A stretch of 11,452 nucleotides of DNA, from the IMG/VR virus record IMGVR_UViG_3300015187_000032; one strand, given 5' to 3'. Numbering within the stretch: the stretch's first letter is position 1; each line of letters opens with the position of its first letter. Shown here in pieces: positions 1-11,452 of the stretch. The notes under the pieces were generated by a model. The model was not told the origin of the DNA, did not search any database, and saw only the letters and a program-made list of their open reading frames with translations. The translations under genes and the position numbers were made by a program. This stretch comes from a virus. Taxonomy: Duplodnaviria > Heunggongvirae > Uroviricota > Caudoviricetes.

Positions 1-1107
1 TCCTGCCGTCAACAGCCAGCAGGCAAAAGTATGCCGCGTATGGTACGGATTATGGCGGCGAATACCAGCACGTTTTACTGCTGCATTCCACCTTGCCCCC
101 AAACTGCTTACCGAGTAATAAGGTTTTTGTTTTCCGTTACACACCCTGGGCATGAAAACAAAATGCAGTTTTTGCTTTTCGGTTCTGCCGTACTCCCGAT
201 GATAAAAGGTGATTTCGCTTTTGCGATGATGCCCGGTCAGTTTGTATTGCTCCTTCAGTGCTTCAAGAGCAGGCTGCAGTAGTGTTACTGTCCGGATCCC
301 GGCATTTGTTTTTGGGGGACCGAACATATCAAGTATCGTCAGGTTTCTTCTGACATTCACTATTCCCTTTTCGAGATCCACATCCTCCCACGCCAGAGCT
401 GCCAGTTCCCCGTGACGAAGTCCTGAGTAAACGGCAAATTTCCACAAGTTCTGGCTCTGTCCTTTTTCACTTTCCATTAATGCATTGAATTCTGTTTTAG
501 ATAACGGATCAGGCTTTATTCTGTTTCGCTGTAATTTTTTTACTCCTTCAAATGGTTTGGTTAATATAAATCCCGACTGATACGCAAAACGCAACAGCGA
601 ACAGAGCAGGGCGATATAGTTATCAACAGTGCGCACGGTTCTTCCTTTTTTGTTGGATCTTGGATTATCCAGGTAAAGCGTTTCTCCATGCAGCAGTTCA
701 TTCCGGTAGTTTAAGATATCGCTATAACGAATATGTGATATCAGGGTACTTTCACAAATTATTATTCTGAGTGTTTTTAATTGTGATTTCGTTTTCTTCA
801 TTGTGTTTGTTGTTAACTCTGTCTCTTTAATTTTTGTCCAGATATCACAAAGCTCCCCGAACGTTTTTATGACTCTCGTTGTCACCATTTTTGCCCCAGT
901 GCTGGACTGGGGAAAACGTCTTAAATACTCAAATTCACCGGAGTTTATTTCATGAACTATCAGTGCTCTTAAATTTCCGGCCTTTTTAATATTACTGTTT
1001 GTAATCTCCCAGCCTTTTAATGTTTCCCGACATCGTTTTCCTCGAAACATGAACCAGATGCGAATGTATCTACCTCTAATCTCGACACCTGTTGGTAATT
1101 TAGACAT
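1..1107 (-). CDS. intR: Prophage tyrosine integrase, 5' part only (N-terminal 369 codons; C-terminus with catalytic Tyr lies beyond position 1)
   Basis: Minus-strand frame is open from the window edge to ATG at rc 1105-1107. N-terminus reads MSKLPTGVEIRGRYIRIWF (hand-translated). The codons nearest the window edge give ...NPYHTRHTFACWLLTAG, the His-X-X-Arg box of tyrosine recombinases. Not in the ORF track because it is edge-truncated. Upstream xis stop overlaps the start (rc 1105-1111 = TGATATG). Confidence 0.85.
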   Translation of the reverse strand, partial: MSKLPTGVEIRGRYIRIWFMFRGKRCRETLKGWEITNSNIKKAGNLRALIVHEINSGEFEYLRRFPQSSTGAKMVTTRVIKTFGELCDIWTKIKETELTTNTMKKTKSQLKTLRIIICESTLISHIRYSDILNYRNELLHGETLYLDNPRSNKKGRTVRTVDNYIALLCSLLRFAYQSGFILTKPFEGVKKLQRNRIKPDPLSKTEFNALMESEKGQSQNLWKFAVYSGLRHGELAALAWEDVDLEKGIVNVRRNLTILDMFGPPKTNAGIRTVTLLQPALEALKEQYKLTGHHRKSEITFYHREYGRTEKQKLHFVFMPRVCNGKQKPYYSVSSLGARWNAAVKRAGIRRHNPYHTRHTFACWLLTAG

Positions 1108-1108
1108 A

Positions 1109-1324
1109 TCATGAGTCTTTGATAAACTGATTTATCTTTGGATAGTTGTACCAGATAATCCCTCGTTTGCTGTCTGGCTTACCTAAAGGAGATACTCGTT
1201 TGAAGTGGAAGCCCTCCACCCAACAGTTCTGGCGGTATGCTTCAATTTGTCTGGCCCCCAGACCAGTGCGAAGCATCAGGCCGTATTCAACCATCCACTC
1301 TTCATTAAAGATTACTTGTGCCAT
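1109..1324 (-). CDS. xisR: Excisionase-like small protein (71 aa) directly upstream of int
   Basis: Track ORF 1109..1348 uses a TTG start. Internal ATG at rc 1322-1324 is preceded by GAGGTG with 5-nt spacing, giving [15 protein letters not shown]... (71 aa). Position immediately upstream of int with 1-nt gap fits an xis-int cassette. Also known as ydaQ. Confidence 0.7.
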
Positions 1325-1423
1325 CGCATCACCTCTGGCAGGCGCCAATGTTAGACTGAAATTGACGCCCGATGTTGATTATTAATAATCAGCTATGAAG
1401 TTTTAATTTGAATACAATGCAAT

Positions 1424-1612
1424 TCACGAGGACTGAAGTTTCTCGCAATTAAAATTAATCAGTTTTACTTTCTGCTCTCTGGAAACGCCTGCTTCTTTTT
1501 TACCTGAGAGCATTTTTTCACATTCTGATTTCGTTAGTTTAGATTTTGAATATCTTGTCCAGTTAGTAGGAGTGCCACCTTCCTTTTCAATAGTGGCGGT
1601 AATTTTATACAT
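1424..1612 (-). CDS. ydaC: Small prophage protein of unknown function (YdaC-like, 62 aa from this start)
   Basis: Track ORF 1424..1684. ATG at rc 1610-1612 is preceded by GGAGGTG at 6-nt spacing (rc of 1613-1630), giving MYKITATIEKEGG.... The longer 86-aa start would overlap lar by about 80 nt and lacks an SD. Start choice is inference. Confidence 0.6.
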   Translation of the reverse strand: MYKITATIEKEGGTPTNWTRYSKSKLTKSECEKMLSGKKEAGVSREQKVKLINFNCEKLQSS

Positions 1613-1799
1613 GAACACCTCCATTATTATTTCCAGTGGTTCGTTTATTCCATCTTTCGAGTGCTTCTTTTTCACTTCCACCATAACCGGTTCGGGATTC
1701 GCATCCGTTACACTTCGCTCGGTAATATGCTGAAATGGCTTTCACCGTTACTGATGGACAACCACAAAATGGACATGGTTTAACATTGTCATATCTCAT
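1605..1799 (-). CDS. ralR: Lar/RalR: restriction-alleviation protein, reported as the DNase toxin of a type I toxin-antitoxin pair; zinc-ribbon-like CxxC...CxxC
   Basis: Track ORF 1605..1811 (MRNVMRYDNVKPCPFCGCPS...AKCNGCES...). Two CxxC pairs (CPFC, CNGC) form a zinc-ribbon-like motif. I chose the second ATG (rc 1797-1799) to give 64 aa, matching my recollection of the K-12 protein; ATG at 1809-1811 is an alternative. Neither has a strong SD. Confidence 0.7.
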   Translation of the reverse strand: MRYDNVKPCPFCGCPSVTVKAISAYYRAKCNGCESRTGYGGSEKEALERWNKRTTGNNNGGVHV

Positions 1800-1854
1800 A
1801 ACATTTCTCATAAAAATATTTCAAGTTCGCGGTGCATTACACCGCCAGGCTGAA

Positions 1855-2664
1855 TTATTCCTCTGAATTATCGATTACACTGTATTCCCCGGTTAATACA
1901 GAGGAATCTGCAGGATCGATTGTCAGTGGTTCCTTTTCATCCATTGATACTGCACGCTGGATCTCAATTGATACGGGCAGATATTTGAACAGGCGACGAA
2001 TAGCCGTTTTCTTTGCCATTTCTTCCCAGTGAGTTACCCACGGCCCGTTATTACTAGCTTTACTCTGGCTGCGCACCAGCTCAATCTGTTTGCGCGTCAT
2101 AACTTCAAACTGAGTACCTCCGTCTTTCAGTCTTGCGACAGCATAGACGTGGGTAACCGGGGCATCTTCGTTTTCTCCTGGGCGGTGTATTAACTTTTCA
2201 TCAAGGCCAAATTCGAAATTAAACTCGTCACCTTCACGGACAACACGGGCTGACAGGCTGGCGATTTGACCTGAACGGCGAGCCAGATCAATCATGCCGC
2301 GATAGCCAATGATTAGCTGAACGTTTTTTTTACCGCTCTTTTCGTTTTTATTACCAAAAGGCAGTAAATATGCATGACCGAGAGCGCTACCGGGCTCAAG
2401 CCCGAGCTGTGAACACTGTACGATTGCACTGACAAAACTCATAGTGTCACAGTTTCCTAACGCCGGAACTTTACGAATTTCTGTGGTGGCGATACGGATC
2501 ATACGTTCAGCCGTCATATGGCGTGGAAGAGCTGCTGCCAGTTGCTCTTTCATTGATGGCTGGTTAATAAAACTAATCACGTCGTTATTTTTAATTGCTG
2601 CTGGTGCACGGTTTCCCTGAGTTTTTTGCAGATCGGCTTTTGCGATTGGTGGTTGCTTAGTCAT
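1855..2664 (-). CDS. recT: RecT single-strand annealing protein (269 aa)
   Basis: Track ORF 1855..2721 with start trimmed to [13 protein letters not shown]... (ATG rc 2662-2664). AAGGA lies upstream at rc 2672-2676. The start overlaps the recE stop (ATGACTAA). Sequence recognised as Rac RecT. Confidence 0.9.
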
Positions 2665-5257
2665 TTGCATATTCCTTAGCCCAGCGGGGCAGTGATAACG
2701 TCTTAATAGCTGGCCATTCATCGGTATTGAGGCAGTCAGCCAGGGTTCGCAGATTGCGGTGATATTCCAGCTGACCTGCCAGTTTTGCTTCTTCGCCCAT
2801 CATGAAAATTTCAACCGGATAACGTCCGCATTCAATAGTTGTGCTGGCAACCAGAAAAACGAAAGTTGGCTGCACTCCAAACTGTGCTTCATAACCGTCA
2901 CTGTAGAATGCATCCTGAACGTGATAGCGGTAGTCGTAATAAGCGGTTTTGAATCGTTGAATATCCGCCGTAGTTTTCACGTCCATGATCCAGTGAAATT
3001 CAGGGATAATTTTGTCCGGACGGCACCGACACAAAATTCCTGTTTCAGGATCTTCCCAGTAAATTGATGATTCAGCGTGTCCGGCGCTTTCAATAAGCCA
3101 TTGCCCCAGCGGCAAAGCCATAACGCTTTGATACATGAGTTCAATTTTCCGGCCTTCTTCCGCAGTGATAACCGTTTTTCCTGTGCTTGCGCATTCCATC
3201 AGAAACGCTTTCTCTTCTTCTTTTCCGGCGTTTGTACGGCGATTAAATTCAGGTGCTACGATAAAGCGGTTACTGAATTCTTCCGGTTCAAGTACCCGGC
3301 AGTGGAAAGCGGTTCCTAAATCGAGCGTTTTTGTCTTTGTGGTGTCCACGGGGGCATTTTTACGCCACAAATACAGTGCCGGAGTATCAGCAATGTCATC
3401 GAGCTGAGACTTACTGACACCGGGACCCGCGTGGTAATTCTCATTCGAAATTCCGTAATAAATACCTGGCTCTATGTCTTCTACGATTACGGGATCTGCG
3501 ACTTCGCCAGTTTCATCACTGCAATCGCGATGCGGATCGCTGCCAGCATTCTCATTGTGCGGATGTTCAGCGCCTTCCATTTCCTCCGGATCATTTTCCT
3601 TAGCTTCAACCTGACTCTCTTCATCGAATGTTTCCTGGTATGTTGCCTCGCCCATCACCGCACCACAGTCAGGGCAGTTATCCCCGCCAGTCTGGCCGCA
3701 GGCATTGCAGGCTATTTCCGGTTCCTGTTGCACTACTGGCTCAGGTTGATTCATATCCGGGCTGGTTTTTTCCGTTTCTGGCTGGTTCTGGTGCACAGAA
3801 TCGCGAGTCTGGATCCCCTTTACCCATTTCGGATCGTTCGGGTCGCTAATTCCGTCAACAAATTCACCACGTGATGCAGCAAGCAATTTATCGGCATCGA
3901 CAGGATTTTTTGATGGAATGTTTTTCCGGGCTTCATGGAGTTCTGCCCGCAGTTTCTGATATTTCGCATCAACAGAATTTACCTGTGACTGAGCATCCAA
4001 CGGCTGCGTGTCCTGATGATGTTCAGTTGCGTCCGGTTCCATTGTTTCAGCCTCTCCCTGTTCAACTGCCGTTGTTCCAGATGGTTGCGGTTTTTCTTCA
4101 TCATCCTGTTTTCCTTCTTCTGTTACTCGCTGCGGCATCGGGGCAGAGGAGCGACCGCAGGCAATATCCACGATTTCCGGATCAGGGTTTGCATGATCGG
4201 TTTCAGTCAGTACTTTGTTCAGATATTCAGTGACGTGCGCGGGGATGACCTCGATCCCAATTGGTGCTTCTTTTACGGACGCAACCACGATGGCGCGGGA
4301 ATAATCCAGCCCGCCAGGCATGGTGATGAATTTGTCGCGGAAAACAGAAAAGGGCGGTTTATTTTCAGCGATAATTTCCTCAATGCGTTTAGCGTGTGCC
4401 GGATGAAGGTTATAGATGTCTAGATCCATTGAACGGGCCAGTACGCCAGTGGCTACGTCGCGCGCCAGTGACGTCAGATCGTGTACGAAACCTTCGCCGC
4501 GATCGGTGAGGTTTCCGCCGCCAGCATTAGCACCGGAAGCCGTGCGAGTGATGTGTGAAACACGATTACCCTTCATCCACTCTTTTGTCAGCAGTCCTCG
4601 ATCGGTGTAGTCAGCGTTCAGGTATGCTTCGAAAAAAGCAGTTATCAGTCCCAGGTTTGAATTACCAGGATTAGGGAAAACTTTGTCAGTGTCACGAACC
4701 AGTTTGTGGAGATCGCGAATTTCCAGCGGGTCGAGCAGGCTGGTTTTGTGGGAAACAGCCAGGGCAGTAACAGCCGGTAGTTCTTCAGCCCGAGCAATGT
4801 GTAATGCCTGGAGTCCGTCGCGTGAAACGTGCGTTACCGGTTTTTCGCTGCCGTGTTGAGCAAGCCAGCGAATGGGCAGTTCCTGGCCAGAAATTGGGAG
4901 TAGCATATTCTCCTCAATCTCAGTCATGTCTTCGCCGTTGACGTTGGTATTGCCTTGATAGTGAGCGTTGTCTGGTGCTGCTCCCGGTTTTAGTTCCCAT
5001 GTCATGGAGTCTTTGCTGAGTTGATAGCGTTCACTCCAGGTAAAATCGATCTCACCTTCAGCGGGCAGGTCATTAACGACAGGAAAATTCGTGGCAACAG
5101 CTTTAAAATAGCTGCTCAGTTTTTTACCTGACTTAACGATCAGGTAGTCCAGAGTGGCACAGGTCGATTCAAAATCGTCGCTTGCCCACAGGACGACGTC
5201 AGGTTCACCGGATGATTTTTTCGCTTTCCGTAACAGGAAGAGTGGTTTTGTGCTCAT
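2657..5257 (-). CDS. recE: RecE exonuclease VIII (866 aa), 5'-3' dsDNA exonuclease partner of RecT
   Basis: Single 866-aa ORF on the minus strand. C-terminal part (...[32 protein letters not shown]...DVKTT...) is the nuclease domain. Middle is acidic and low-complexity, with a Cys4 motif (CNAC-x10-CPDC). Length and sequence fit Rac RecE. Confidence 0.9.
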
Positions 5258-5328
5258 TGTTTTTTAACCTCAACTCAGATTAAAATTCGTTTTGTTCAGT
5301 GAATGATCTTGCCGGATACACACTGTTC

Positions 5329-5353
5329 ATAGCCTGCGCCATACGCAGGCTAT
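5329..5353 (-). other. Perfect 10-bp stem / 5-nt loop hairpin 6 nt downstream of the racC stop, between racC and recE
   Basis: 5329-5338 ATAGCCTGCG pairs with 5344-5353 CGCAGGCTAT; loop is CCATA. On the minus-strand transcript it is not followed by a U-tract, so it is not a canonical intrinsic terminator. Confidence 0.3.
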
Positions 5354-5358
5354 TTCTT

Positions 5359-5634
5359 TCAGATTTCACCTTTTAATTTCATTGCAATTAGAGTTGCCAG
5401 AAATTCGGCTTTTTTTTCTGTGGGCAGATTCTTTCCGGTATGCACCAGGCACATTTTTTTGACACCTTCGTGAAGTGTTTTAACGTTGCCTGATGGACCG
5501 TCGATATCAACCACAGTGAATGGGGTTTCTTTATTTTCTGTTTTAATCACGTAGCCAATACGCTTTCCTTCCAGATTAACTTCGTGAACAATGTCATCAG
5601 TAGTTACAACAGTGGCTTCATAACTGGTAATCAT
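5359..5634 (-). CDS. racC: RacC small prophage protein (91 aa)
   Basis: Track ORF 5359..5682 trimmed to ATG at rc 5632-5634 (MITSYEATVVTTDD...), preceded by AAGGAG at 6-nt spacing (rc of 5635-5650). Confidence 0.75.
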   Translation of the reverse strand: MITSYEATVVTTDDIVHEVNLEGKRIGYVIKTENKETPFTVVDIDGPSGNVKTLHEGVKKMCLVHTGKNLPTEKKAEFLATLIAMKLKGEI

Positions 5635-5708
5635 GTTTTTCTCCTTAATTAAGGTTGAGCGAATCCCTGCCATTGCTGGCATAAATTCAGTTTCGCATAG
5701 TCAGTTAA

Positions 5709-5879
5709 TTAAAGTTCGTGTGCCATCTGGTCTTTTTCGGCACATATTTCACTACAATATTTTTTCATTTCCGTCGTTGGGATAACTCCACGCATGAAAT
5801 GAAGTGGTCTTTTAATGCTTTTGCTTTCTTTAACTTCTTTATCGCAAAGATGGTAAGCACATTTTATTTTCTTAGTCAT
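5709..5879 (-). CDS. ydaE: YdaE small Cys-rich (putative zinc-binding) protein, 56 aa; missing from the ORF track (<60 aa)
   Basis: Hand translation of the minus strand gives [56 protein letters not shown] with stop TAA (rc 5709-5711). Four Cys (C7, C12, C43, C47). The ATG overlaps the kilR stop (rc 5877-5881 = TGATG), suggesting translational coupling. Confidence 0.65.
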   Translation of the reverse strand: MTKKIKCAYHLCDKEVKESKSIKRPLHFMRGVIPTTEMKKYCSEICAEKDQMAHEL

Positions 5880-6100
5880 CACCATGACTCCGCCTTTACA
5901 GGTAAACCATCACGACCGAGGAAGACTTTAATCATGCAGTCAGTAATGCATGTTTTTGTGGTCAGGTTACGAATATAAAGTTTTCGCTTTTTAATATTGT
6001 TTGCCGAGGCAATATATGTCCGGCCGTTATGAAGAATATAATCACCAGGAGTCACACACTGACGAGGTATTTCATCAGTTCCGAAGTGATGAGCAATCAT
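5879..6100 (-). CDS. kilR: KilR: prophage Kil protein, cell-division (FtsZ) inhibitor (73 aa)
   Basis: Track ORF 5879..6118 (GTG start) trimmed to ATG at rc 6098-6100 ([14 protein letters not shown]...), with GGAG 6 nt upstream. Recognised as Rac KilR. Confidence 0.75.
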
Positions 6101-6261
6101 AATTATCTCCATTTTCACAAATGAACTTTGTTGATGCGGTGCCTGGTGCCTCCAGGTGACGTTAACCAGTTAACAATTAACGCCGGATAATCCACCCATA
6201 ACACTGATGCTTTTAACTGTTCCGCGTGCGCTTAGCCGCATTCACCGCATCACAAAATTCA

Positions 6262-6312
6262 CTTTAAAAAGGGCGGACATCAGCCGAACTTCAAGAAAAA
6301 AACTGATGCCGC
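6262..6312 (-). terminator. Candidate intrinsic terminator on the minus strand, upstream of kilR in the leftward transcription direction
   Basis: GC-rich stem 6271-6282 (GGCGGACATCAG) pairs with 6302-6312 (CTGATGCCGCC), 11 bp with one bulge and a 19-nt A-rich loop. On the minus strand it is followed directly by CTTTTTAAAG (rc of 6261-6270). Confidence 0.3.
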
Positions 6313-6531
6313 CAGGACTACACACAGCAATGTCGTTATTTACAACCGGAGGCGCACTCCCACCATTTAAATTTAACAGACAAGACCGACTCTTTATGGA
6401 TATCGGAAATGCGCCTTCGTGTTGTGCCCGGTTTTATTTCACCACCTCCGGGCTTCGGTGGTCTCGGCTATACCCCTACAGCGAGAGCTTGTGTTAACAT
6501 TTCAATACCCTTACAGTTGAGAGTTATTGAT

Positions 6532-7020
6532 ATGTTGGATGTATTTACTCCATTGTTGAAACTTTTTGCTAACGAGCCACTCGAAAGACTTATGTATACG
6601 ATTATCATTTTTGGTCTCACTCTCTGGCTGATACCGAAAGAGTTTACTGTCGCATTCAATGCTTATACTGAAATACCTTGGCTCTTTCAGATTATCGTTT
6701 TTGCCTTTTCTTTCGTGGTCGCCATTTCCTTCTCAAGATTGCGAGCACATATTCAAAAGCATTATTCATTACTACCAGAGCAACGAGTATTGCTTCGTTT
6801 ATCTGAGAAAGAAATCGCTGTATTTAAAGATTTCCTTAAAACAGGAAATCTTATTATCACTTCTCCTTGTCGTAACCCGGTTATGAAAAAATTAGAACGG
6901 AAGGGCATCATTCAACATCAGAGTGATAGCGCAAACTGTTCTTATTATCTCGTCACCGAAAAATACTCCCATTTTATGAAGTTATTCTGGAACAGCAGGA
7001 GTAGACGTTTTAATCGTTAG
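6532..7020 (+). CDS. sieB: SieB superinfection-exclusion protein (162 aa), membrane protein
   Basis: Track ORF 6409..7020 trimmed to ATG 6532 (MLDVFTPLLKLFANEPLERLMYTIIIFGLTLWLIPKEF...). Two hydrophobic segments are predicted. Encoded opposite to the surrounding leftward operon. The stop overlaps the ydaF stop on the other strand. Confidence 0.8.
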   Translation: MLDVFTPLLKLFANEPLERLMYTIIIFGLTLWLIPKEFTVAFNAYTEIPWLFQIIVFAFSFVVAISFSRLRAHIQKHYSLLPEQRVLLRLSEKEIAVFKDFLKTGNLIITSPCRNPVMKKLERKGIIQHQSDSANCSYYLVTEKYSHFMKLFWNSRSRRFNR

Positions 7021-7172
7021 CTTACTGTGTGCTTCTCCAACCATCGGCGCGCACCAGTTTCTGTTTTAAATGTTTTGCTTTTGGTATACGTCATAGCAGT
7101 GAACGTTCCATCTTGGTTGGGGAACACGCCGCACACAATGGATTCGTTATTGCCGAGGTCGATTTTTTGCAT
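7017..7172 (-). CDS. ydaF: YdaF small prophage protein (51 aa); missing from the ORF track
   Basis: Hand translation gives MQKIDLGNNESIVCGVFPNQDGTFTAMTYTKSKTFKTETGARRWLEKHTVS. ATG at rc 7170-7172 is preceded by GAGGTG, which contains the ydaG stop codon. Stop TAA at rc 7017-7019. Confidence 0.55.
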   Translation of the reverse strand: MQKIDLGNNESIVCGVFPNQDGTFTAMTYTKSKTFKTETGARRWLEKHTVS

Positions 7173-7182
7173 TTTTCGCACC

Positions 7183-7317
7183 TCACATCTTGTTGTTGCG
7201 GATAGAGGCTTCTGCCTGCCAGAGATCCCAGTCGTTGCTGCGTAAAGCCTGCACAGCCTGGTTGTAAGTGATGCCGCAACAATCCATCAAATACTGAACT
7301 ACTTCGTAATGCACCAT
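7183..7317 (-). CDS. ydaG: YdaG small prophage protein (44 aa); missing from the ORF track
   Basis: Hand translation gives MVHYEVVQYLMDCCGITYNQAVQALRSNDWDLWQAEASIRNNKM. ATG at rc 7315-7317 is preceded by GGGGAGA at about 6-nt spacing. First gene downstream of the leftward early promoter. Confidence 0.6.
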   Translation of the reverse strand: MVHYEVVQYLMDCCGITYNQAVQALRSNDWDLWQAEASIRNNKM

Positions 7318-7486
7318 CTTATCTCTCCCCTTAACGCCGGGTGGCGGAACTAACTGCTGCACTGCAAAATTTGAATCCCGCCGTCATGTTCATACGCCTC
7401 GGGCTGGCTACTTAACCCCTGACCACTGCCTGGTAACTCGAAGTATTGCCCGGCGTTCTGTGGGGCGGGGTGGGTGGTATGCTGGA

Positions 7487-7515
7487 ACTATAGGTAATGC
7501 CTAATTGATTGTCAA
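7487..7515 (-). promoter_or_regulatory. pL-like leftward early promoter: TTGACA -17 bp- TATAGT on the minus strand
   Basis: rc of 7510-7515 is TTGACA; rc of 7487-7492 is TATAGT; the spacer is exactly 17 bp. Oriented toward ydaG-ydaF-kilR-recET. Flanked and overlapped by the operator palindromes. Confidence 0.45.
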
Positions 7516-7528
7516 TAGGCTATGCCTA
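7491..7528. promoter_or_regulatory. Left operator cluster (OL-like): two 13-bp TAGGC-N3-GCCTA palindromes 25 bp apart
   Basis: 7491-7503 TAGGTAATGCCTA (imperfect) and 7516-7528 TAGGCTATGCCTA (perfect). The second abuts the -35; the first overlaps the -10. The same 13-mer family recurs three times on the other side of racR. Confidence 0.5.
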
Positions 7529-7589
7529 ATATTTTGAGCGTAACCTAATAGGTGATGGCGACAGCAGAAAGTGATGGGGGGGTTAAATA

Positions 7590-7611
7590 ACGGAATCCAG
7601 GAGTTTTCCGT
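7590..7611 (-). terminator. Weak candidate terminator hairpin downstream of racR
   Basis: ACGGAA (7590-7595) pairs with TTCCGT (7606-7611), loop 10 nt. On the minus strand it is followed by UUAUUUAA then a C7 run. Sits about 15 nt past the racR stop (TAA, rc 7626-7628). Confidence 0.2.
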
Positions 7612-7625
7612 CAGACCATATAAGT

Positions 7626-8102
7626 TTAAGTTCCAGTTTTTGTGATGTTCTGGCTTTTCCGTTCAGATTCTAGAGCTTTCAGATACTTACCCACTTTCAT
7701 TTCCATCGCTGCTATGTAGGCGCGAACATCGTGGTCAACCCAATCTGGTTCTGTAGCATTTCCAGATAACAGGAAAGCTACAATCGCTCTTATTTCATCA
7801 GAGGCTGCTTGATAAAGGTTGTTTATATCTAAAAGTTCACTTTTTGTATCTGAATTGGTGGGGGTTGGTATGGGGTATTCGTTAAGCCCCCAATGCTCTG
7901 GACCAACAACATCAGAAAAGAAACGCCATAATTCTGGAAGTTTATCTTTACTTATAGAGCCTTTCTTAATCCAGTCATAAATTGATGGTGGTTGGACTTT
8001 GAAGTGGCGTGCGACCTCCGCCTTTGATTTGACGGATCCCGATGCGATTTTTTTGTTAATGGCCTGCTCTATCGCTCGGCCTAAGTCTTTACCACTAAGC
8101 AT
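7626..8102 (-). CDS. racR: RacR prophage repressor (158 aa), HTH DNA-binding protein
   Basis: Track ORF 7626..8102. Divergent from ydaS across a 123-bp operator-rich intergenic region. Sequence recognised as Rac RacR. Confidence 0.85.
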   Translation of the reverse strand: MLSGKDLGRAIEQAINKKIASGSVKSKAEVARHFKVQPPSIYDWIKKGSISKDKLPELWRFFSDVVGPEHWGLNEYPIPTPTNSDTKSELLDINNLYQAASDEIRAIVAFLLSGNATEPDWVDHDVRAYIAAMEMKVGKYLKALESERKSQNITKTGT

Positions 8103-8131
8103 TGCTTAATATTCTCCTATGCGCATTGCAT

Positions 8132-8195
8132 TAGGCAATCCCTACCTTTATCGTATTAGGCATAGCCTATTGACATTTGCGTTAGGCGTCGCCTA
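8132..8195. promoter_or_regulatory. Right operator cluster (OR-like): three 13-bp TAGGC-N3-GCCTA palindromes at 25-26-bp centre spacing, between racR and ydaS
   Basis: 8132-8144 TAGGCAATCCCTA (imperfect), 8157-8169 TAGGCATAGCCTA (perfect), 8183-8195 TAGGCGTCGCCTA (perfect). The 21-bp block 8155-8175 is the exact reverse complement of 7510-7530. Confidence 0.5.
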
Positions 8196-8199
8196 ATAT
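8170..8199 (+). promoter_or_regulatory. pR-like rightward early promoter: TTGACA -18 bp- TAATAT
   Basis: TTGACA at 8170-8175; best -10 candidate TAATAT at 8194-8199, overlapping the third operator. Followed by GGAG (8214-8217) and the ydaS ATG at 8226. Confidence 0.4.
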
Positions 8200-8225
8200 T
8201 TCTGTGTGTTTTTGGAGTTCATTCG

Positions 8226-8522
8226 ATGAAAAAAGAGAACTATTCATTCAAGCAAGCTTGTGCTGTTGTCGGTGGGCAATCAGCAATGGCTAGGCTTTTA
8301 GGTGTATCACCTCCAAGCGTAAATCAATGGATCAAAGGGGTACGTCAATTGCCTGCCGAGAGATGTCCAGCAATTGAACGTGCAACAAGAGGTGAGGTTC
8401 TGTGCGAAGAACTTCGTCCAGATATTGACTGGTCATATTTACGACGTTCGGCATGTTGTTCGCAGAATATGTCAGTGAAGCAACTAAATGACAGTAACAA
8501 ATCCTCATTTGATCATACCTGA
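8226..8522 (+). CDS. ydaS: YdaS: Cro-like HTH early protein (98 aa), toxic when derepressed
   Basis: Track ORF 8226..8522, first gene of the rightward operon. ...SAMARLLGVSPPSVNQWIKG... is an HTH-like segment. Recognised as Rac YdaS. Confidence 0.85.
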   Translation: MKKENYSFKQACAVVGGQSAMARLLGVSPPSVNQWIKGVRQLPAERCPAIERATRGEVLCEELRPDIDWSYLRRSACCSQNMSVKQLNDSNKSSFDHT

Positions 8523-8544
8523 AACATCAAGAGGCAAATGATTC

Positions 8545-8967
8545 ATGAAAATCAAGCATGAGCACATCGAATCAGTGTTGTTTGCCCTGGCAGCCGAAAA
8601 AGGGCAGGCATGGGTAGCCAATGCAATTACTGAAGAATATCTGCGCCAGGGGGGCGGCGAATTGCCCCTAGTTCCAGGCAAGGACTGGAACAATCAGCAG
8701 AATATCTATCACCGTTGGTTGAAAGGTGAAACGAAAACGCAAAGAGAAAAAATTCAGAAGCTGATCCCAGCAATTCTGGCAATCCTTCCGCGCGAGCTGC
8801 GTCACCGACTCTGCATCTTCGATACCCTGGAACGCCGTGCATTACTGGCGGCGCAGGAAGCGTTAAGTACGGCAATTGATGCGCATGATGATGCAGTCCA
8901 GGCCGTTTACCGGAAAGCGCATTTCAGCGGCGGCGGGTCTTCCGACGATTCTGTCATTGTTCATTAA
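8545..8967 (+). CDS. ydaT: YdaT: CII-like / toxin-like early protein (140 aa)
   Basis: Track ORF 8545..8967; SD AAGAGG upstream of the ATG. Recognised as Rac YdaT. Confidence 0.85.
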   Translation: MKIKHEHIESVLFALAAEKGQAWVANAITEEYLRQGGGELPLVPGKDWNNQQNIYHRWLKGETKTQREKIQKLIPAILAILPRELRHRLCIFDTLERRALLAAQEALSTAIDAHDDAVQAVYRKAHFSGGGSSDDSVIVH

Positions 8968-8979
8968 GCAAAAGTTTCC

Positions 8980-9837
8980 ATGCTGTTTGTGCTTATTCTA
9001 AGCAACCGGGCAGCATCATACGGGGCAATTATGGCCGCATTACCATACATGCAACTGTACATAGCTGATTACCTGGCTGACACCATGCATTTGTCAGCAG
9101 AGGAGCATGGTGCGTATTTGTTGCTGATGTTCAATTACTGGCAAACAGGAAAGCCAATACCTAAAAACAGGCTGGCAAAAATTGCCCGTCTGACTAACGA
9201 GCGATGGGCTGGTGTTGAACCATCCTTGCGGGAGTTTTTTTGCGATAACGGCGAGGAATGGGTGCATCTTCGGATTGAGGAAGATCTGGCATCAGTCAGG
9301 GAAAAATTAACCAAAAAATCAGCCGCAGGAAAAGCATCTGTTCAGGCTAGAAGAAGCAGAAAGGAAGCAGATGTTCAAACAAAACAAGAGAGAAATTTAA
9401 CAGGTGTTCAAACAGATGTTGAAGTGGTGTTTGAACATGATGTCAACACAAAGGCAACTAATAAAGATACAGATAAAGATCTAAAAACAGATCCCCCCCT
9501 AAATCCCCCCCGGGGGAATCGAGGTGTCAAAAAGTTTGACCCTCTGGATATTGCTTTGCCGAACTGGATTTCTGTCTCGCTTTGGCGTGAGTGGGTTGAA
9601 TTTCGCCAGGCATTGCGTAAACCGATTCGAACGGAGCAGGGCGCTAACGGGGCGATACGGGAGCTGGAAAAATTCCGCCAGCAGGGTTTTTCACCTGAGC
9701 AGGTGATTCGACACAGCATCGCCAACGAATACAAGGGCTTGTTCGCGCCGAAAGGTGTTCGACCTGAGACGTTACTCCGACAGGTTAACACCGTTTCGTT
9801 ACCGGACAGTGCGATCCCGCCAGGCTTCAGGGGGTAA
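8980..9837 (+). CDS. ydaU: YdaU: replication-initiator-like protein (DUF1376-type; lambda O position)
   Basis: Track ORF 8980..9837 (285 aa). No SD before the ATG at 8980. An alternative start at 9031 (MAALPYMQLYIADYLADT...) follows a GGGG motif and may be the true start. Central linker region contains iteron-like repeats. Confidence 0.75.
   Translation: MLFVLILSNRAASYGAIMAALPYMQLYIADYLADTMHLSAEEHGAYLLLMFNYWQTGKPIPKNRLAKIARLTNERWAGVEPSLREFFCDNGEEWVHLRIEEDLASVREKLTKKSAAGKASVQARRSRKEADVQTKQERNLTGVQTDVEVVFEHDVNTKATNKDTDKDLKTDPPLNPPRGNRGVKKFDPLDIALPNWISVSLWREWVEFRQALRKPIRTEQGANGAIRELEKFRQQGFSPEQVIRHSIANEYKGLFAPKGVRPETLLRQVNTVSLPDSAIPPGFRG
9368..9520. repeat. Candidate replication-origin repeats inside ydaU: three 10-bp TGTTCAAACA copies followed by an A-rich tract and a C7/C7/G5 block
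   Basis: TGTTCAAACA at 9372-9381 and 9405-9414 (direct) and 9428-9437 (inverted). A-rich stretch 9451-9491. CCCCCCC at 9493-9499 and 9505-9511, then GGGGG at 9512-9516. Layout resembles the lambda ori inside the O gene. Confidence 0.3.
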
Positions 9838-9843
9838 CTGACC

Positions 9844-10590
9844 ATGAAAAATATTGCGACAGGCGGCGTTCTTGAACGTATCCGCAGACTGGCTCCGTCA
9901 CATGTAACCGCGCCATTCAAGACGGTGGCGGAGTGGCGTGAGTGGCAACTTTCCGAAGGCCAGAAACGTTGTGAGGAGATCAACCGTCAGAATCGTCAGT
10001 TGCGGGTGGAAAAAATTCTGAATCGCTCTGGCATCCAGCCATTGCACCGCAAATGCTCGTTTTCGAATTACCAGGTGCAGAACGACGGTCAGCGATACGC
10101 GTTGAGCCAGGCGAAATTCATCGCCGATGAACTGATGGTCGGGTGTACAAATTTTGCGTTCAGTGGAAAACCTGGTACCGGAAAAAACCATCTGGCGGCG
10201 GCTATCGGGAATCGCCTGCTGAAAGACGGTCAGACAGTGATTGTGGTTACCGTGGCTGATGTTATGAGCGCCCTGCACGCCAGCTATGACGACGGGCAGT
10301 CAGGCGAAAAATTTTTGCGGGAACTGTGCGAAGTTGATCTGCTGGTTCTTGATGAAATTGGTATTCAGCGCGAGACGAAAAACGAGCAGGTGGTACTGCA
10401 CCAGATTGTTGATCGCCGGACAGCGTCGATGCGCGGCGTGGGAATGCTGACAAACCTGAACTATGAGGCCATGAAAACATTGCTCGGCGCGCGGATTATG
10501 GATCGCATGACCATGAACGGCGGACGCTGGGTGAATTTTAACTGGGAGAGCTGGCGTCCGAATGTCGTCCAGCCAGGAATTGCGAAGTAA
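9844..10590 (+). CDS. ydaV: YdaV: DnaC-like AAA+ helicase loader (248 aa)
   Basis: Track ORF 9844..10590. Walker [16 protein letters not shown] and Walker [10 protein letters not shown] are present. IstB/DnaC-like protein at the lambda P position. Confidence 0.85.
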
Positions 10591-10612
10591 TTTTTACCGG
10601 GAGAAAAATTTA

Positions 10613-11380
10613 ATGGAGACTGTTTTTGACGCACTGAAAGCAATGGGAATAGCCACATCCATAGAACTTGCTGCGCGACTTGATATCAGTCGTGAAGAAG
10701 TGCTGAACGAACTATGGGAACTGAAAAAGGCTGGTTTTGTTGATAAAAGCGCGTACACCTGGCGTGTGGCTGATAACAACGTTCAGCAGGAACAGCCAGC
10801 GCAGGCAGAACTGCCGGAAGAAACCACCACAGCAACAGTAGCGAAAATCTCAGAGTGCGATTTAACCGCGACGATTGAACAACGCGGACCACAAACGGCT
10901 GATGAGCTGGCTACATTGTTTGGTACCACATCACGCAAAGTGGCTTCAACGCTGGCAATGGCAATCAGCAAAGGTCGTCTGATTCGCGTAAATCAGGGCG
11001 GTAAATTTCGTTACTGCATACCGGGCGATAATTTACCAGCAGAGCCGAAAGCAGCATCGGTAGCGGAAACTGATGGTAAGGCCTTTCCTCAGACCGCAGG
11101 TGTCGCGTTACCAGTACAGGAGGCTGCAACACAGGAAGAAATTAAAACAGATACTATGGGGGACATTGTGCAGTCACTACCATCGTTCACTGAAACGCGA
11201 GCCAATGACCTGATTTTACCATCGCTGCATATGGCAAACCGCGAACTGCGCCGGGCGAAAAGTCATGTCCAGAAGTGGGAGCGAGTCTGCGCCGCGCTGC
11301 GTGAGCTGAACAAGCACCAGGATATTGTTCGACAGATTACGGATTCTTTTCCGAGGCAACACGGCGGAAAGAATCCGTAA
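10613..11380 (+). CDS. ydaW: YdaW-like protein with two tandem winged-helix-like segments (255 aa from this start)
   Basis: Track ORF 10562..11380 trimmed to ATG 10613 ([12 protein letters not shown]...), with GGGAGA 8 nt upstream. The longer start overlaps ydaV by 29 nt. Two similar HTH-like segments: [31 protein letters not shown] and [31 protein letters not shown]. The 3' end lies inside a large palindrome. Symbol assigned by position in the Rac map. Confidence 0.6.
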
Positions 11381-11416
11381 TCTGTCGAACAATAACCTGT
11401 AGCTTGTTCAGCTCAC
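11301..11416. repeat. Large imperfect palindrome (about 55-bp arms) spanning the ydaW stop codon
   Basis: Inner 13-bp perfect stem 11337-11349 / 11368-11380, plus 3 more bp after a 1-nt bulge, loop about 11 nt. Outer arms 11301-11336 and 11381-11416 match 33/36 as reverse complements. The minus strand reads a near-identical C-terminal peptide ending at TAA (rc 11337-11339). Confidence 0.6.
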
Positions 11417-11452
11417 GCCCCGAGTCTGCACCACGCTGCGCTCGCTGGACAA

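What the first reader, a model, noticed from the sequence alone, without database searches (positions are those of the whole stretch)
10613..11380. ydaW-like protein contains two tandem winged-helix-like repeats
Residues about 8-45 and about 100-140 both follow an E-L-A-x-L-x4-S-x-x-V...G-x-L/F-I/V pattern typical of the recognition helix and wing of a winged-helix domain. A tandem winged-helix protein at the end of the replication module could be a regulator or an origin accessory factor. Its gene terminates inside the large palindrome.
Basis: inference. Interest (0 to 1): 0.35.

Follow-up and report, generated by a model that had tools for sequence, protein, structure and literature searches.

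The report
Prophage YdaW protein: two winged helices
The gene is an ordinary member of the uncharacterised YdaW/DUF1627 family of lambdoid prophages, and it does encode two winged-helix domains plus a basic C-terminal helix, but its last ten codons and the "large palindrome" are a fold-back oddity at the very end of this window and are not part of the native gene.

Summary
The ORF at 10613-11380 is real. It is a DUF1627/YdaW protein of a Rac-like E. coli prophage (Pfam 317 bits), and window 1-11348 is 99.98% identical to strain T-HYM1.

The two-winged-helix claim holds:
- AlphaFold2 gives two H-β-H-H-β-β domains, residues 4-52 and 81-135, at pLDDT 94-97.
- The best long Foldseek matches are tandem winged-helix proteins such as ScpB, ESCRT-II and SelB.
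- The second domain modelled alone reaches TM 0.80-0.82 against MarR-like and FeoC structures.

The internal repeat is not detectable in the single sequence (score 23 against a shuffle mean of 21.5). It is clear between family profiles (hhalign 94%, E 1e-7; shuffled-column controls reach at most 16.5 against 35.6).

Function remains unknown. The gene follows the helicase-loader gene in four different types of replication module and precedes a Ren-like gene. That argues against an origin-specific factor.

The palindrome is private to this window. The last 104 nt are a diverged fold-back copy of the gene's own 3' end, and I found it in no public collection searched. The native protein ends ...SYRRVASEK.

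The literature already lists YdaW as a putative MarR-type regulator, so interest is low.

The parts
10599..10604 (+). Shine-Dalgarno GGGAGA, 8 nt before the ATG. It lies 9 nt after the ydaV stop codon (10588-10590). No promoter-like site was found, so the gene is probably co-transcribed with ydaV.
   Evidence: Sequence read directly. Promoter scan of 10300-11452 found 0 sites.
10613..11380 (+). ORF of 255 codons: a YdaW-like, DUF1627-family protein. Codons 1-245 are native; codons 246-255 and the stop come from the non-native tail.
   Evidence: Pfam DUF1627 E 2.4e-95, 317 bits against a 28.1 cut-off. phrog_630 E 2e-127. 2357 homologues. RefSeq annotates the identical locus as a DUF1627 protein of 253 aa.
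10613..10774 (+). Winged-helix domain 1 (residues 1-54): H4-11, bridge 13-14, H16-23, H27-39, strands 43-46 and 49-52. It is acidic. L34 and W50 are invariant in the family.
   Evidence: AF2 pLDDT 94-97. Sub-threshold Pfam and NCBIfam hits are all HTH or winged-helix families: HTH_Crp_2, HTH_20, TrmB, MarR, ArsR. Conservation. Net charge -1.9 on average over 39 relatives.
10775..10849 (+). Linker 1 (residues 55-79): variable in length and sequence, predicted disordered.
   Evidence: pLDDT 50-70. Length 12-39 residues across relatives.
10850..11026 (+). Winged-helix domain 2 (residues 80-138): H81-91, H96-103, H107-119, strands 124-128 and 131-135. It is basic. Conserved residues: R108, S112, T113 in helix 3 and R/K125 (39/39) in the wing.
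   Evidence: AF2 pLDDT 95-97. Modelled alone: pLDDT 91.4, pTM 0.77. Foldseek TMq 0.82 to 2eth and 0.80 to FeoC 4awx. PDB profile hits to MarR, ArsR, FeoC and Z-alpha at E 9e-5 to 1e-2. Column counts.
11027..11206 (+). Linker 2 (residues 139-198): acidic, variable, predicted disordered. It ends in the conserved IPxFT motif (about residues 190-193).
   Evidence: pLDDT 50-61. Mean net charge -5.2. Alignment.
11207..11347 (+). C-terminal basic amphipathic helix (residues 199-245). R213 is conserved in 38/39 relatives, and hydrophobic positions recur with 3.5-residue periodicity. It is a candidate coiled-coil dimerisation element, DNA-contact element, or both.
   Evidence: AF2 H205-234 and H236-244, pLDDT 91-95. 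Periodicity power 4.66 at 3.5 residues against 2.53 at 3.6. Mean net charge +6.3.
11349..11452 (.). Non-native tail of the window. 11349-11418 is the reverse complement of the gene's own last 70 nt (65/70 identical to the reference). 11421-11452 is a forward copy of 11283-11314 (26/32 identical). This tail creates the last 10 codons, the stop codon and the palindrome.
   Evidence: The junction was not found in 5,426 complete E. coli genomes, IMG/VR, GTDB representative genomes or JGI metagenomes.
11266..11451 (.). The 'large palindrome': arms 11266-11349 and 11368-11451, 84 nt each, 77% complementary, 18-nt spacer. The spacer is itself the inverted RRVASE-coding end of a DUF1627 gene.

Best explanation
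What is shown. The gene encodes a typical YdaW/DUF1627 early protein of a Rac-like lambdoid prophage. It has three conserved modules joined by disordered linkers: an acidic winged helix (residues 1-54), a basic winged helix (80-138), and a basic C-terminal helix with heptad periodicity (199-245). The two winged helices are related to each other at profile level. The gene lies directly behind the helicase-loader gene and has no promoter-like site of its own.

What is inferred (about 45% likely). The protein dimerises through the C-terminal helix and binds nucleic acid. Contacts would come mainly from the recognition helix of the second winged helix (R108, S112, T113) and its wing (R/K125). The acidic first winged helix would make protein contacts or mask the basic parts. 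On this reading it is an accessory regulator or DNA-binding factor of the early-right operon, not a core origin protein.

The palindrome. It is not part of this biology. It is a fold-back copy of the gene's own 3' end in the last 104 nt of the window, most likely an artefact of a contig end. The native protein ends ...ITDSYRRVASEK and is followed 15 nt later by a Ren-like (DUF977) gene.

On the confidence figure. About 0.9 applies to the shown architecture and family assignment, about 0.45 to the inferred DNA-binding dimer mechanism, and about 0.75 to the artefact reading of the tail. The single figure of 0.6 is a compromise over the whole statement.
For: - Family membership.
- Fold: AF2 topology and pLDDT. 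Foldseek returns tandem winged-helix proteins over 137-159 columns (3lmm, ScpB 2z99/3w6j, ESCRT-II 2zme/3cuq, SelB, UFL1) and single winged-helix domains at rmsd 1.1-1.5 A. The second domain alone reaches TMq 0.80-0.82.
- Repeat.
- Charge and conservation pattern over 39 relatives of 21-70% identity.
- Context: same gene order in complete genomes and phages and in diverged IMG/VR relatives.
- No promoter-like site. This agrees with PMC9308461, which found no evident promoter for ydaW.
- Prior listing as a MarR-type putative transcription factor: PMC4797297.
- Tail.
Against: - No DNA-binding or dimerisation experiment exists, and no target site was identified.
- All sequence hits to named HTH families fall below their curated cut-offs.
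- Foldseek E-values are weak (best 5e-4 for the whole model, 1e-2 for the second domain alone) because the domains are small.
- The first winged helix has an acidic helix 3, which is atypical for DNA contact.
- Eight clusters of shorter relatives have the first winged helix plus the C-terminal helix but no second winged helix. The second domain therefore cannot be the only functional element.
- Tandem winged helices in ScpB and ESCRT-II mediate protein contacts, not DNA binding.
- The artefact reading of the tail cannot be proven without reads, and its differences from the reference are substitutions only.
Confidence: 0.6

Rival explanations
1. The protein is a protein-binding adaptor or counter-defence / host-takeover factor, in the manner of its neighbour Ren. 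The winged helices would serve as protein-interaction surfaces, and any DNA binding would be incidental.
For: - Overexpressed K-12 ydaW was one of five prophage genes that blocked the retron-Sen2 toxin RcaT (bioRxiv 10.1101/2020.06.22.160242; restated in PMC11951105).
- The gene is followed by a Ren-like gene. The profile of the second winged helix resembles lambda Ren (hhalign 75.7%, E 2.4e-5) and the Ren-like ORF of L034 (89.7%).
- It sits behind four different types of replication module, as a mobile accessory gene would.
- The best long Foldseek matches (ScpB, ESCRT-II, UFL1) are protein-binding tandem winged helices.
- The first winged helix is acidic.
Against: - The retron result comes from an overexpression screen of the truncated K-12 allele and could be indirect.
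- There are no PADLOC or anti-defence family hits beyond generic winged-helix noise.
- The conserved R/S/T recognition helix and the always-basic wing residue of the second domain look like nucleic-acid contacts.
Confidence: 0.3
2. The protein is an origin or replication accessory factor that acts with the initiator (YdaU) or the loader (YdaV) at the phage origin.
For: The gene lies immediately downstream of the helicase-loader gene in every locus examined, with a 13-25 nt gap and probable co-transcription. Foldseek against the viral library lists some replisome-organiser and replication-initiator models among weak hits (ranks 31, 34, 47).
Against: The same gene follows DUF1376/YdaU + DnaC-like, Phage_rep_O + DnaC-like, Phage_rep_O + lambda-P, and HTH_36/DnaT + lambda-P-like modules. 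It therefore does not co-vary with a particular initiator or origin. Lambda itself replicates without it; there the position is occupied by ren alone. Those viral Foldseek hits have E of about 1e-2 and reflect the generic winged-helix fold.
Confidence: 0.1
3. The two segments resemble each other by chance, and there is no tandem winged-helix architecture.
For: The single-sequence self-alignment is no better than shuffles. All HTH family hits are below their thresholds.
Against: Profile-profile E 1e-7 with clean controls. Two independent AF2 runs give winged-helix topology at pLDDT above 90. All top-50 Foldseek hits are winged-helix proteins.
Confidence: 0.03
4. The palindrome is a genuine rearrangement in the source genome: a tail-to-tail inverted partial duplication of the DUF1627 3' end. 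It truncates the gene and could form a large hairpin or act as a recombination hotspot.
For: The arms are not identical: 93% over the inner 70 nt and 81% over the outer 32 nt, with substitutions only. A simple self-fold-back of one molecule would not give that. E. coli genomes carry up to 9 DUF1627-like copies that could supply a second allele.
Against: - The tail lies in the last 104 nt of the window.
- No place in any of 5,426 complete E. coli genomes covers even 80% of the stretch spanning the junction. The junction 36-mer is absent from IMG/VR, GTDB representative genomes and JGI metagenomes.
- The inverted 'allele' matches no known allele better than the gene's own copy, and its 30-mer is found nowhere.
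- It changes family-conserved residues: H235 to L and D237 to V.
- The sequence then flips orientation a second time.
- Homologous recombination between inverted copies cannot produce a palindrome.
- Two genomes with a 100% identical locus continue normally into DUF977.
Confidence: 0.2

Closest known systems
YdaW / DUF1627 (Pfam PF07789; PHROG 630) of Rac-like and Stx-converting lambdoid prophages
   Same: Full-length match. The protein is 100% identical over residues 1-245 to RefSeq WP_000450651.1 and sits in the same gene order, racR-ydaS-ydaT-ydaU-ydaV-DUF1627-DUF977.
   Different: Only the last 10 residues differ ([10 protein letters not shown] instead of YRRVASEK), because of the non-native tail. 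The Pfam model covers the second winged helix and the C-terminal helix but not the first winged helix.
MarR / ArsR-SmtB / FeoC type single winged-helix DNA-binding domains
   Same: Same H1-S1-H2-H3-S2-S3 topology. TMq is 0.72-0.82 and rmsd 1.5-2.1 A for the second domain. Weak profile hits reach E 9e-5. YdaW is listed under MarR in Ishihama's transcription-factor census.
   Different: Scores fall below every family cut-off (MarR 14.9 against 24.6 bits). There are no MarR dimerisation helices flanking the domain and no ArsR metal-site context. There are two domains on one chain, separated by a disordered linker.
Tandem winged-helix proteins (ScpB, ESCRT-II subunits, SelB C-terminus, DIP2311)
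   Same: These are the best long Foldseek alignments (137-159 columns) and cover both domains in tandem order.
   Different: In those proteins the winged helices pack against each other or are joined by short linkers. Here a linker of 12-39 residues with low pLDDT separates them, and pTM is 0.35, so no fixed arrangement is predicted. Sequence identity is 8-18%, and there is no evidence of shared partners.
Lambda Ren and Ren-like / DUF977 proteins (the downstream neighbour)
   Same: The profile of the second winged helix aligns with the N-terminal winged helix of Ren (75.7%, E 2.4e-5) and of the Ren-like ORFs in L034 and L027 (89.7% and 78.0%). The position after the loader gene is the same.
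   Different: The protein lacks the C-terminal CRxSxxMxRVLAFY motif that Ren, DUF977 and the L027 ORF share (sequences read directly). It is much longer and has its own C-terminal helix.
Z-alpha domains (ADAR1, ZBP1, PKZ, poxvirus E3L), often found in tandem
   Same: Recurrent weak hits: ADAR1 Z-alpha at E 1.4e-4 to 7e-4; Foldseek TMt 0.76-0.81 to 1qbj and 4ka4; viral Z-binding proteins. An aromatic residue in the wing strand (W50; W/Y134) aligns with the Z-alpha Trp.
   Different: The Z-DNA contact residues N173 and Y177 of ADAR1 (from my knowledge of the Z-alpha/Z-DNA complex) align with alanines in the consensus of the second domain, and with L31 and R/W35 in the first domain (by eye). The profile in fact scores higher (22.6 against 17.7-17.9 bits) against an ADAR1 Z-alpha entry (2l54) in which both positions are alanine than against the other single-domain ADAR1 Z-alpha entries.

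Membership tests
DUF1627 (PF07789) / YdaW | Match to the family HMM above the gathering score | tested here: met
   317 bits against 28.1; residues 88-242 cover profile positions 1-155 of 155. phrog_630 covers residues 1-245.
DUF1627 (PF07789) / YdaW | Genomic position in a lambdoid early-right operon, downstream of the replication genes | tested here: met
   The gene follows ydaV in the window and in reference genomes and phages.
Winged-helix fold, domain 1 (residues 1-54) | H1-S1-H2-H3-S2-S3 topology with structural matches to solved winged-helix domains | tested here: met
   AF2 DSSP and pLDDT 94-97. Tandem Foldseek alignments of 137-159 columns must include this domain. This domain was not modelled and searched on its own.
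Winged-helix fold, domain 2 (residues 80-138) | H1-S1-H2-H3-S2-S3 topology with structural matches to solved winged-helix domains | tested here: met
   Modelled alone: pLDDT 91.4, pTM 0.77. TMq 0.82 (2eth), 0.81 (2a61, AspA 4rs8), 0.80 (FeoC). All top-50 hits are winged-helix proteins.
Internal tandem repeat (two homologous domains) | Significant self-similarity between the two segments | tested here: met
   The single sequence is not significant. Profile against profile gives 94.2%, E 1.2e-7, with clean controls. Whether this reflects an internal duplication or two separately acquired winged-helix domains was not resolved.
MarR family transcription factor | MarR / MarR_2 HMM above its cut-off | tested here: not met
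   PF01047 scores 14.9 bits against a 24.6 cut-off, with no stretch passing on its own.
MarR family transcription factor | N- and C-terminal helices flanking the winged helix that form the dimer interface | tested here: not met
   Each AF2 domain is a bare three-helix, two-strand unit flanked by disordered linkers.
Sequence-specific DNA-binding regulator (generic) | Demonstrated DNA binding and an operator site | not testable with these tools
   Only indirect support: the second domain and the C-terminal helix are basic, and R108, S112, T113 and R/K125 are conserved.
Z-alpha (Z-DNA/Z-RNA binding) domain | Conserved Asn and Tyr in helix 3 (ADAR1 N173, Y177) plus Trp in the wing | tested here: not met
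   N173 and Y177 align with Ala in the consensus of the second domain. Column counts at 111 are A18/T7/V5 and at 115 A15/R9. Only the aromatic wing residue is kept.
Lambda Ren / DUF977 family | Small protein with an N-terminal winged helix and a C-terminal CRxSxxMxRVLAFY motif; DUF977 HMM | tested here: not met
   There is no DUF977 hit for the window protein. Only the second winged helix aligns with Ren. The motif is absent (sequence read directly).
Coiled-coil dimerisation helix | Heptad a/d hydrophobic pattern over at least 4 heptads, and oligomerisation | tested here: inconclusive
   Conserved hydrophobic residues at 208, 212, 219, 222, 225, 229, 232, 239 and 242, with a periodicity peak at 3.5 residues. 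No multimer prediction or dedicated coiled-coil program was available.

The most novel reading that the evidence does not exclude
DUF1627 proteins, together with the Ren-like winged-helix protein encoded next to them, could form a mobile counter-defence cassette. It would travel behind whatever helicase loader a lambdoid phage uses. The tandem winged helices and the basic helix would bind or mimic a nucleic-acid or protein component of host immunity, for example retron msDNA/RcaT or Rex-type systems. This fits the retron-Sen2 blocker hit for K-12 ydaW and the independence from replication-module type.
Probability: 0.15. Interest if true: 0.6.

Novelty: already known. Interest (0 to 1): 0.18.

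Why it matters
The practical gain is a better domain map for a very common prophage protein of unknown function. It has 2357 homologues at E ≤ 1e-3 in the 90%-identity cluster search, and about half of complete E. coli genomes carry a related sequence.

The map gives three modules: an acidic winged helix, a basic winged helix and a basic heptad helix. Named residues (R108, S112, T113, R/K125, R213) can now be mutated. Pfam's model omits the first domain.

The analysis also warns that the 3' end of this copy and the palindrome should not be interpreted biologically. If the protein proves to be a counter-defence factor or a regulator of the early operon, this map would guide the experiments. As it stands, this is routine annotation of a known family.

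Tried and rejected
1. Single-sequence self-alignment gave no signal above shuffles. Profiles were needed.
2. phmmer of the whole protein against PDB sequences gave only a chance hit to YjjX, E 0.66.
3. The profile of the first winged helix against the PDB put designed pentatricopeptide repeats on top (E 7e-8). This is spurious: eight repeats of one 17-residue helix, each at E of about 600, are summed. The real winged-helix hits (iron-dependent repressor, LexA, IclR, TFE) come at E 3e-3 to 6e-2.
4. The Z-alpha reading was rejected on the key residues.
5. MarR family membership was rejected: below the cut-off and no dimerisation helices.
6. PADLOC gave no defence-family hit beyond winged-helix noise.
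7. The search for related loci with the 39-sequence alignment failed because no stretch was conserved enough. Single distant proteins were used instead.
8. Looking for the source of the tail found nothing. The exact 255-aa product is not on record. The junction 36-mer and the 'allele B' 30-mer are absent from IMG/VR and GTDB representative genomes, and the junction is also absent from JGI metagenomes. In complete E. coli genomes no place covers more than 36% of the stretch spanning the junction.
9. Homologous recombination between inverted prophage copies was considered as the origin of the palindrome. It was rejected because it yields hybrid genes in one orientation, not a palindrome.
10. The promoter and terminator scan of 10300-11452 found nothing relevant.
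Full report
**Where the window comes from.** The window is the early region of a Rac-like lambdoid prophage of Escherichia coli. Positions 1-11348 are collinear with the chromosome of strain T-HYM1 (NZ_CP141767.1). There is one mismatch in 5275 nt and one in 6949 nt. The window runs from inside intR through ralR/RalA, recT, recE, kilR, sieB, racR, ydaS, ydaT, ydaU and ydaV to the target gene.

**The ORF.** The target ORF is 10613-11380, 255 codons. A GGGAGA ribosome-binding site lies 8 nt upstream, and the ORF starts 22 nt after the ydaV stop. The ORF listing extends the frame to an ATG at 10562. All 39 aligned relatives begin at the METV of 10613, and RefSeq annotates that start. No promoter-like site precedes the gene. 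This agrees with a published remark that ydaW has no evident promoter (PMC9308461).

**Family.** The protein matches Pfam DUF1627 at 317 bits (cut-off 28.1) over residues 88-242, and PHROG 630 over residues 1-245. Neither family has a known function. The word-indexed search found 2357 homologues, the best 120 all at 78-95% identity and mostly from Escherichia. The exhaustive search of 50%-identity representatives found only 175 clusters. This is a narrow family, but it has full-length members down to about 25% identity. Phage records call the protein 'putative YdaW family protein'. No solved structure is related by sequence.

**Checking the observation.**
- The stated motif fits the second segment exactly. 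It fits the first only with one-residue shifts of L and S.
- From this sequence alone the resemblance is not above chance. Smith-Waterman scores 23 against 21.5 +/- 3.7 for shuffles, and 665 of 2000 shuffles score as high or higher.
- With family information it is clear. I aligned 39 full-length representatives, cut out the N-terminal, middle and C-terminal modules, and compared the profiles.
- N against middle gives probability 94.2%, E 1.2e-7, over 53 columns. N or middle against the C-terminal module gives 0.4-0.5%.
- Sixty column-shuffled versions of the middle module score 9.3 +/- 2.2 (maximum 16.5) against 35.6 observed, and the reversed module scores 12.2.
- The built-in profile comparison reproduces the result at 93.2%, E 3e-7.

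**Structure.** AlphaFold2 on the 39-sequence alignment gives two compact domains with the same element order.
- Domain 1 has H4-11, a short bridge, H16-23, H27-39 and strands 43-46 and 49-52.
- Domain 2 has H81-91, a bridge, H96-103, H107-119 and strands 124-128 and 131-135.
- Both have block pLDDT of 94-97.
- The linkers (55-80 and 139-200) are low-confidence. pTM is 0.35, so no fixed mutual arrangement is predicted.
- Foldseek against the PDB puts tandem winged-helix proteins on top with 137-159 aligned columns: DIP2311, ScpB, ESCRT-II subunits, UFL1/DDRGK1 and SelB.
- Single-domain hits follow at rmsd 1.1-1.5 A: ArsR/CadC, YgaV, AspA and FeoC.
- The viral library gives MarR, TrmB, ArsR and Z-binding proteins.
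- The second domain modelled alone (pLDDT 91.4, pTM 0.77) reaches TMq 0.82 to a MarR-like regulator, 0.81 to AspA and 0.80 to FeoC. All 50 best hits are winged-helix proteins, though E-values stay near 1e-2 because the domain is small.
- Sequence profiles agree. The second domain hits MarR, ArsR, FeoC and Z-alpha chains at E 9e-5 to 1e-2. The first domain collects sub-threshold hits to a dozen HTH and winged-helix families.

There is a third conserved module, residues about 199-245.
- It starts after a conserved IPxFT...P motif and is predicted as one long helix at pLDDT 91-95.
- It carries R213 in 38 of 39 sequences and many other basic residues.
- Its conserved hydrophobic positions (208, 212, 219, 222, 225, 229, 232, 239, 242) have a periodicity peak at 3.5 residues. 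That is the coiled-coil value, not the 3.6 of a plain helix.

The charge pattern is conserved across the family: first winged helix -1.9, second +3.2, second linker -5.2, C-terminal helix +6.3. Helix 3 of the second domain keeps R108 (31 R + 6 K), S112 (31) and T113 (20), and position 125 in the wing is R or K in all 39. Helix 3 of the first domain is acidic (E/D29, E36).

Eight clusters of shorter relatives (137-167 aa) have the first winged helix and the C-terminal helix but no second winged helix. The architecture is therefore modular, and the second domain is an optional addition.

**Context.**
- In complete genomes and phages the order is initiator, loader, DUF1627, then a DUF977 protein annotated as 'Ren-like exclusion protein' or LygF.
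- In diverged IMG/VR relatives the gene again follows the loader at once. The replication module, however, is of four kinds: DUF1376/YdaU + DnaC-like, Phage_rep_O + DnaC-like, Phage_rep_O + lambda-P, and HTH_36/DnaT + lambda-P-like.
- The next gene is often a small Ren-like winged-helix protein. The profile of the second domain aligns with lambda Ren at 75.7% (E 2.4e-5) and with the L034 ORF at 89.7%.
- Independence from the initiator type argues against an origin-specific accessory role. It fits an accessory gene at the replication/nin boundary.

**Function.** Nothing is demonstrated.
- The literature lists YdaW as an uncharacterised MarR-type transcription factor (PMC4797297).
- A supplementary figure legend marks a MarR-type box and a second putative DNA-binding box (PMC9308461).
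- A ydaW deletion reduced early biofilm formation (PMC3105296).
- K-12 ydaW appeared among prophage genes that block the retron-Sen2 toxin when overexpressed (bioRxiv 10.1101/2020.06.22.160242).

My best guess, at about 45%, is a dimeric nucleic-acid-binding protein. It would contact DNA through the second winged helix and hold together through the C-terminal helix, with the acidic first winged helix making protein contacts. The main rival, at about 30%, is a protein-binding or counter-defence adaptor related in role to Ren. An origin accessory factor is less likely, at about 10%. MarR, Z-alpha and Ren family membership were each tested and not met.

**The palindrome.** The repeat finder confirms arms 11266-11349 and 11368-11451, 77% complementary, with an 18-nt spacer.
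- All close matches in 5,426 complete E. coli genomes stop at window position 11348.
- In the two genomes with a 100% identical locus, the gene continues for 24 more nt (SYRRVASEK, stop). It is followed by the DUF977 gene.
- The window's last 104 nt are instead the reverse complement of the gene's own last 70 nt (65/70 identical, no gaps). After 2 nt comes a forward copy of 11283-11314 (26/32 identical). The sequence thus zig-zags forward, reverse, forward.
- No place in any complete E. coli genome covers even 80% of the stretch spanning the junction. The junction is absent from IMG/VR, GTDB representative genomes and JGI metagenomes.
- The inverted copy matches no allele better than the window's own gene, and a 30-mer from it occurs nowhere.
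- It changes family-conserved residues. None of 270 fetched homologues has the resulting tail [10 protein letters not shown], and the exact product is not on record.
- Both window ends fall inside genes that are repeated among prophages (intR and DUF1627), as ends of short-read contigs do.

I therefore read the tail as an artefact of a contig end (about 70-80%) and not as biology. The substitution-only divergence is not well explained, and only reads can settle it.

**Verdict.** The structural interpretation is right, and it is a modest refinement of what is already in the literature for a known family of unknown function. The functional ideas remain open, and the palindrome should be discounted. 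Interest is low.

Noticed in passing
window 11349-11452: The last 104 nt zig-zag: a reverse-complement copy of the gene's final 70 nt (93% identical), then a forward copy of 11283-11314 (81%), with substitutions only. The junction was found in no public collection searched. The origin is unexplained; an artefact of a contig end is likeliest.
   Followed up: yes
window 1428-1606 (+) and ORF 1605-1811 (-): There is a full-length Rfam hit to the RalA antitoxin sRNA (222.7 bits). It lies just downstream of, and antisense to, the 3' end of the ralR toxin ORF, which it overlaps by 2 nt. This is the known type I toxin-antitoxin pair of Rac.
   Followed up: no
L001 6991-7413; L002 5786-6217; L027 5698-6009; L034 5692-6003; lambda L038 1681-1971: The gene after DUF1627 is a Ren-like small winged-helix protein. 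Lambda Ren, DUF977 and the L027 ORF share a C-terminal motif CRxSxxMxRVLAFY, and the winged helix of DUF977 and of Ren resembles the second winged helix of DUF1627.
   Followed up: partly
L005, L007, L009, L010, L027, L028, L032, L034 (match at about 5001 in each): The DUF1627 gene always sits directly behind the helicase-loader gene, although the initiator/loader pair is of four different kinds. This suggests a module boundary or an accessory cassette, not co-evolution with one origin.
   Followed up: partly
proteins P0140, P0150, P0153, P0189, P0201, P0212, P0235, P0241: These shorter relatives (128-167 aa) have the first winged helix, a linker and the C-terminal basic helix, but no second winged helix. 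P0133 and P0203 look like the second winged helix plus the C-terminal helix, possibly from truncated gene calls.
   Followed up: partly
L007 4998-5897 and L009 4998-5903: These homologues are about 300 aa and appear to carry two consecutive copies of the C-terminal 'P..(E)I.RR.K' helix. This was seen by eye in the translations.
   Followed up: no
L001 7632-9790 (reference genome, downstream of the window's end): Two convergent genes match PARIS defence components: AriB (DUF4435, E 1.8e-12) and AriA (E 1.4e-39). A defence island therefore lies just beyond the DUF1627/DUF977 pair in the reference prophage.
   Followed up: no
window 10562-10612: An in-frame upstream ATG overlaps the end of ydaV and would give a 272-aa ORF. 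Family alignment and RefSeq both support the 10613 start.
   Followed up: yes
window residue 13 of the protein (nt 10649-10651): The window protein has Ile where at least 90% of 39 relatives have Lys (K13, nearly invariant). The identical RefSeq protein carries the same residue, so it is a lineage trait and not an error.
   Followed up: no
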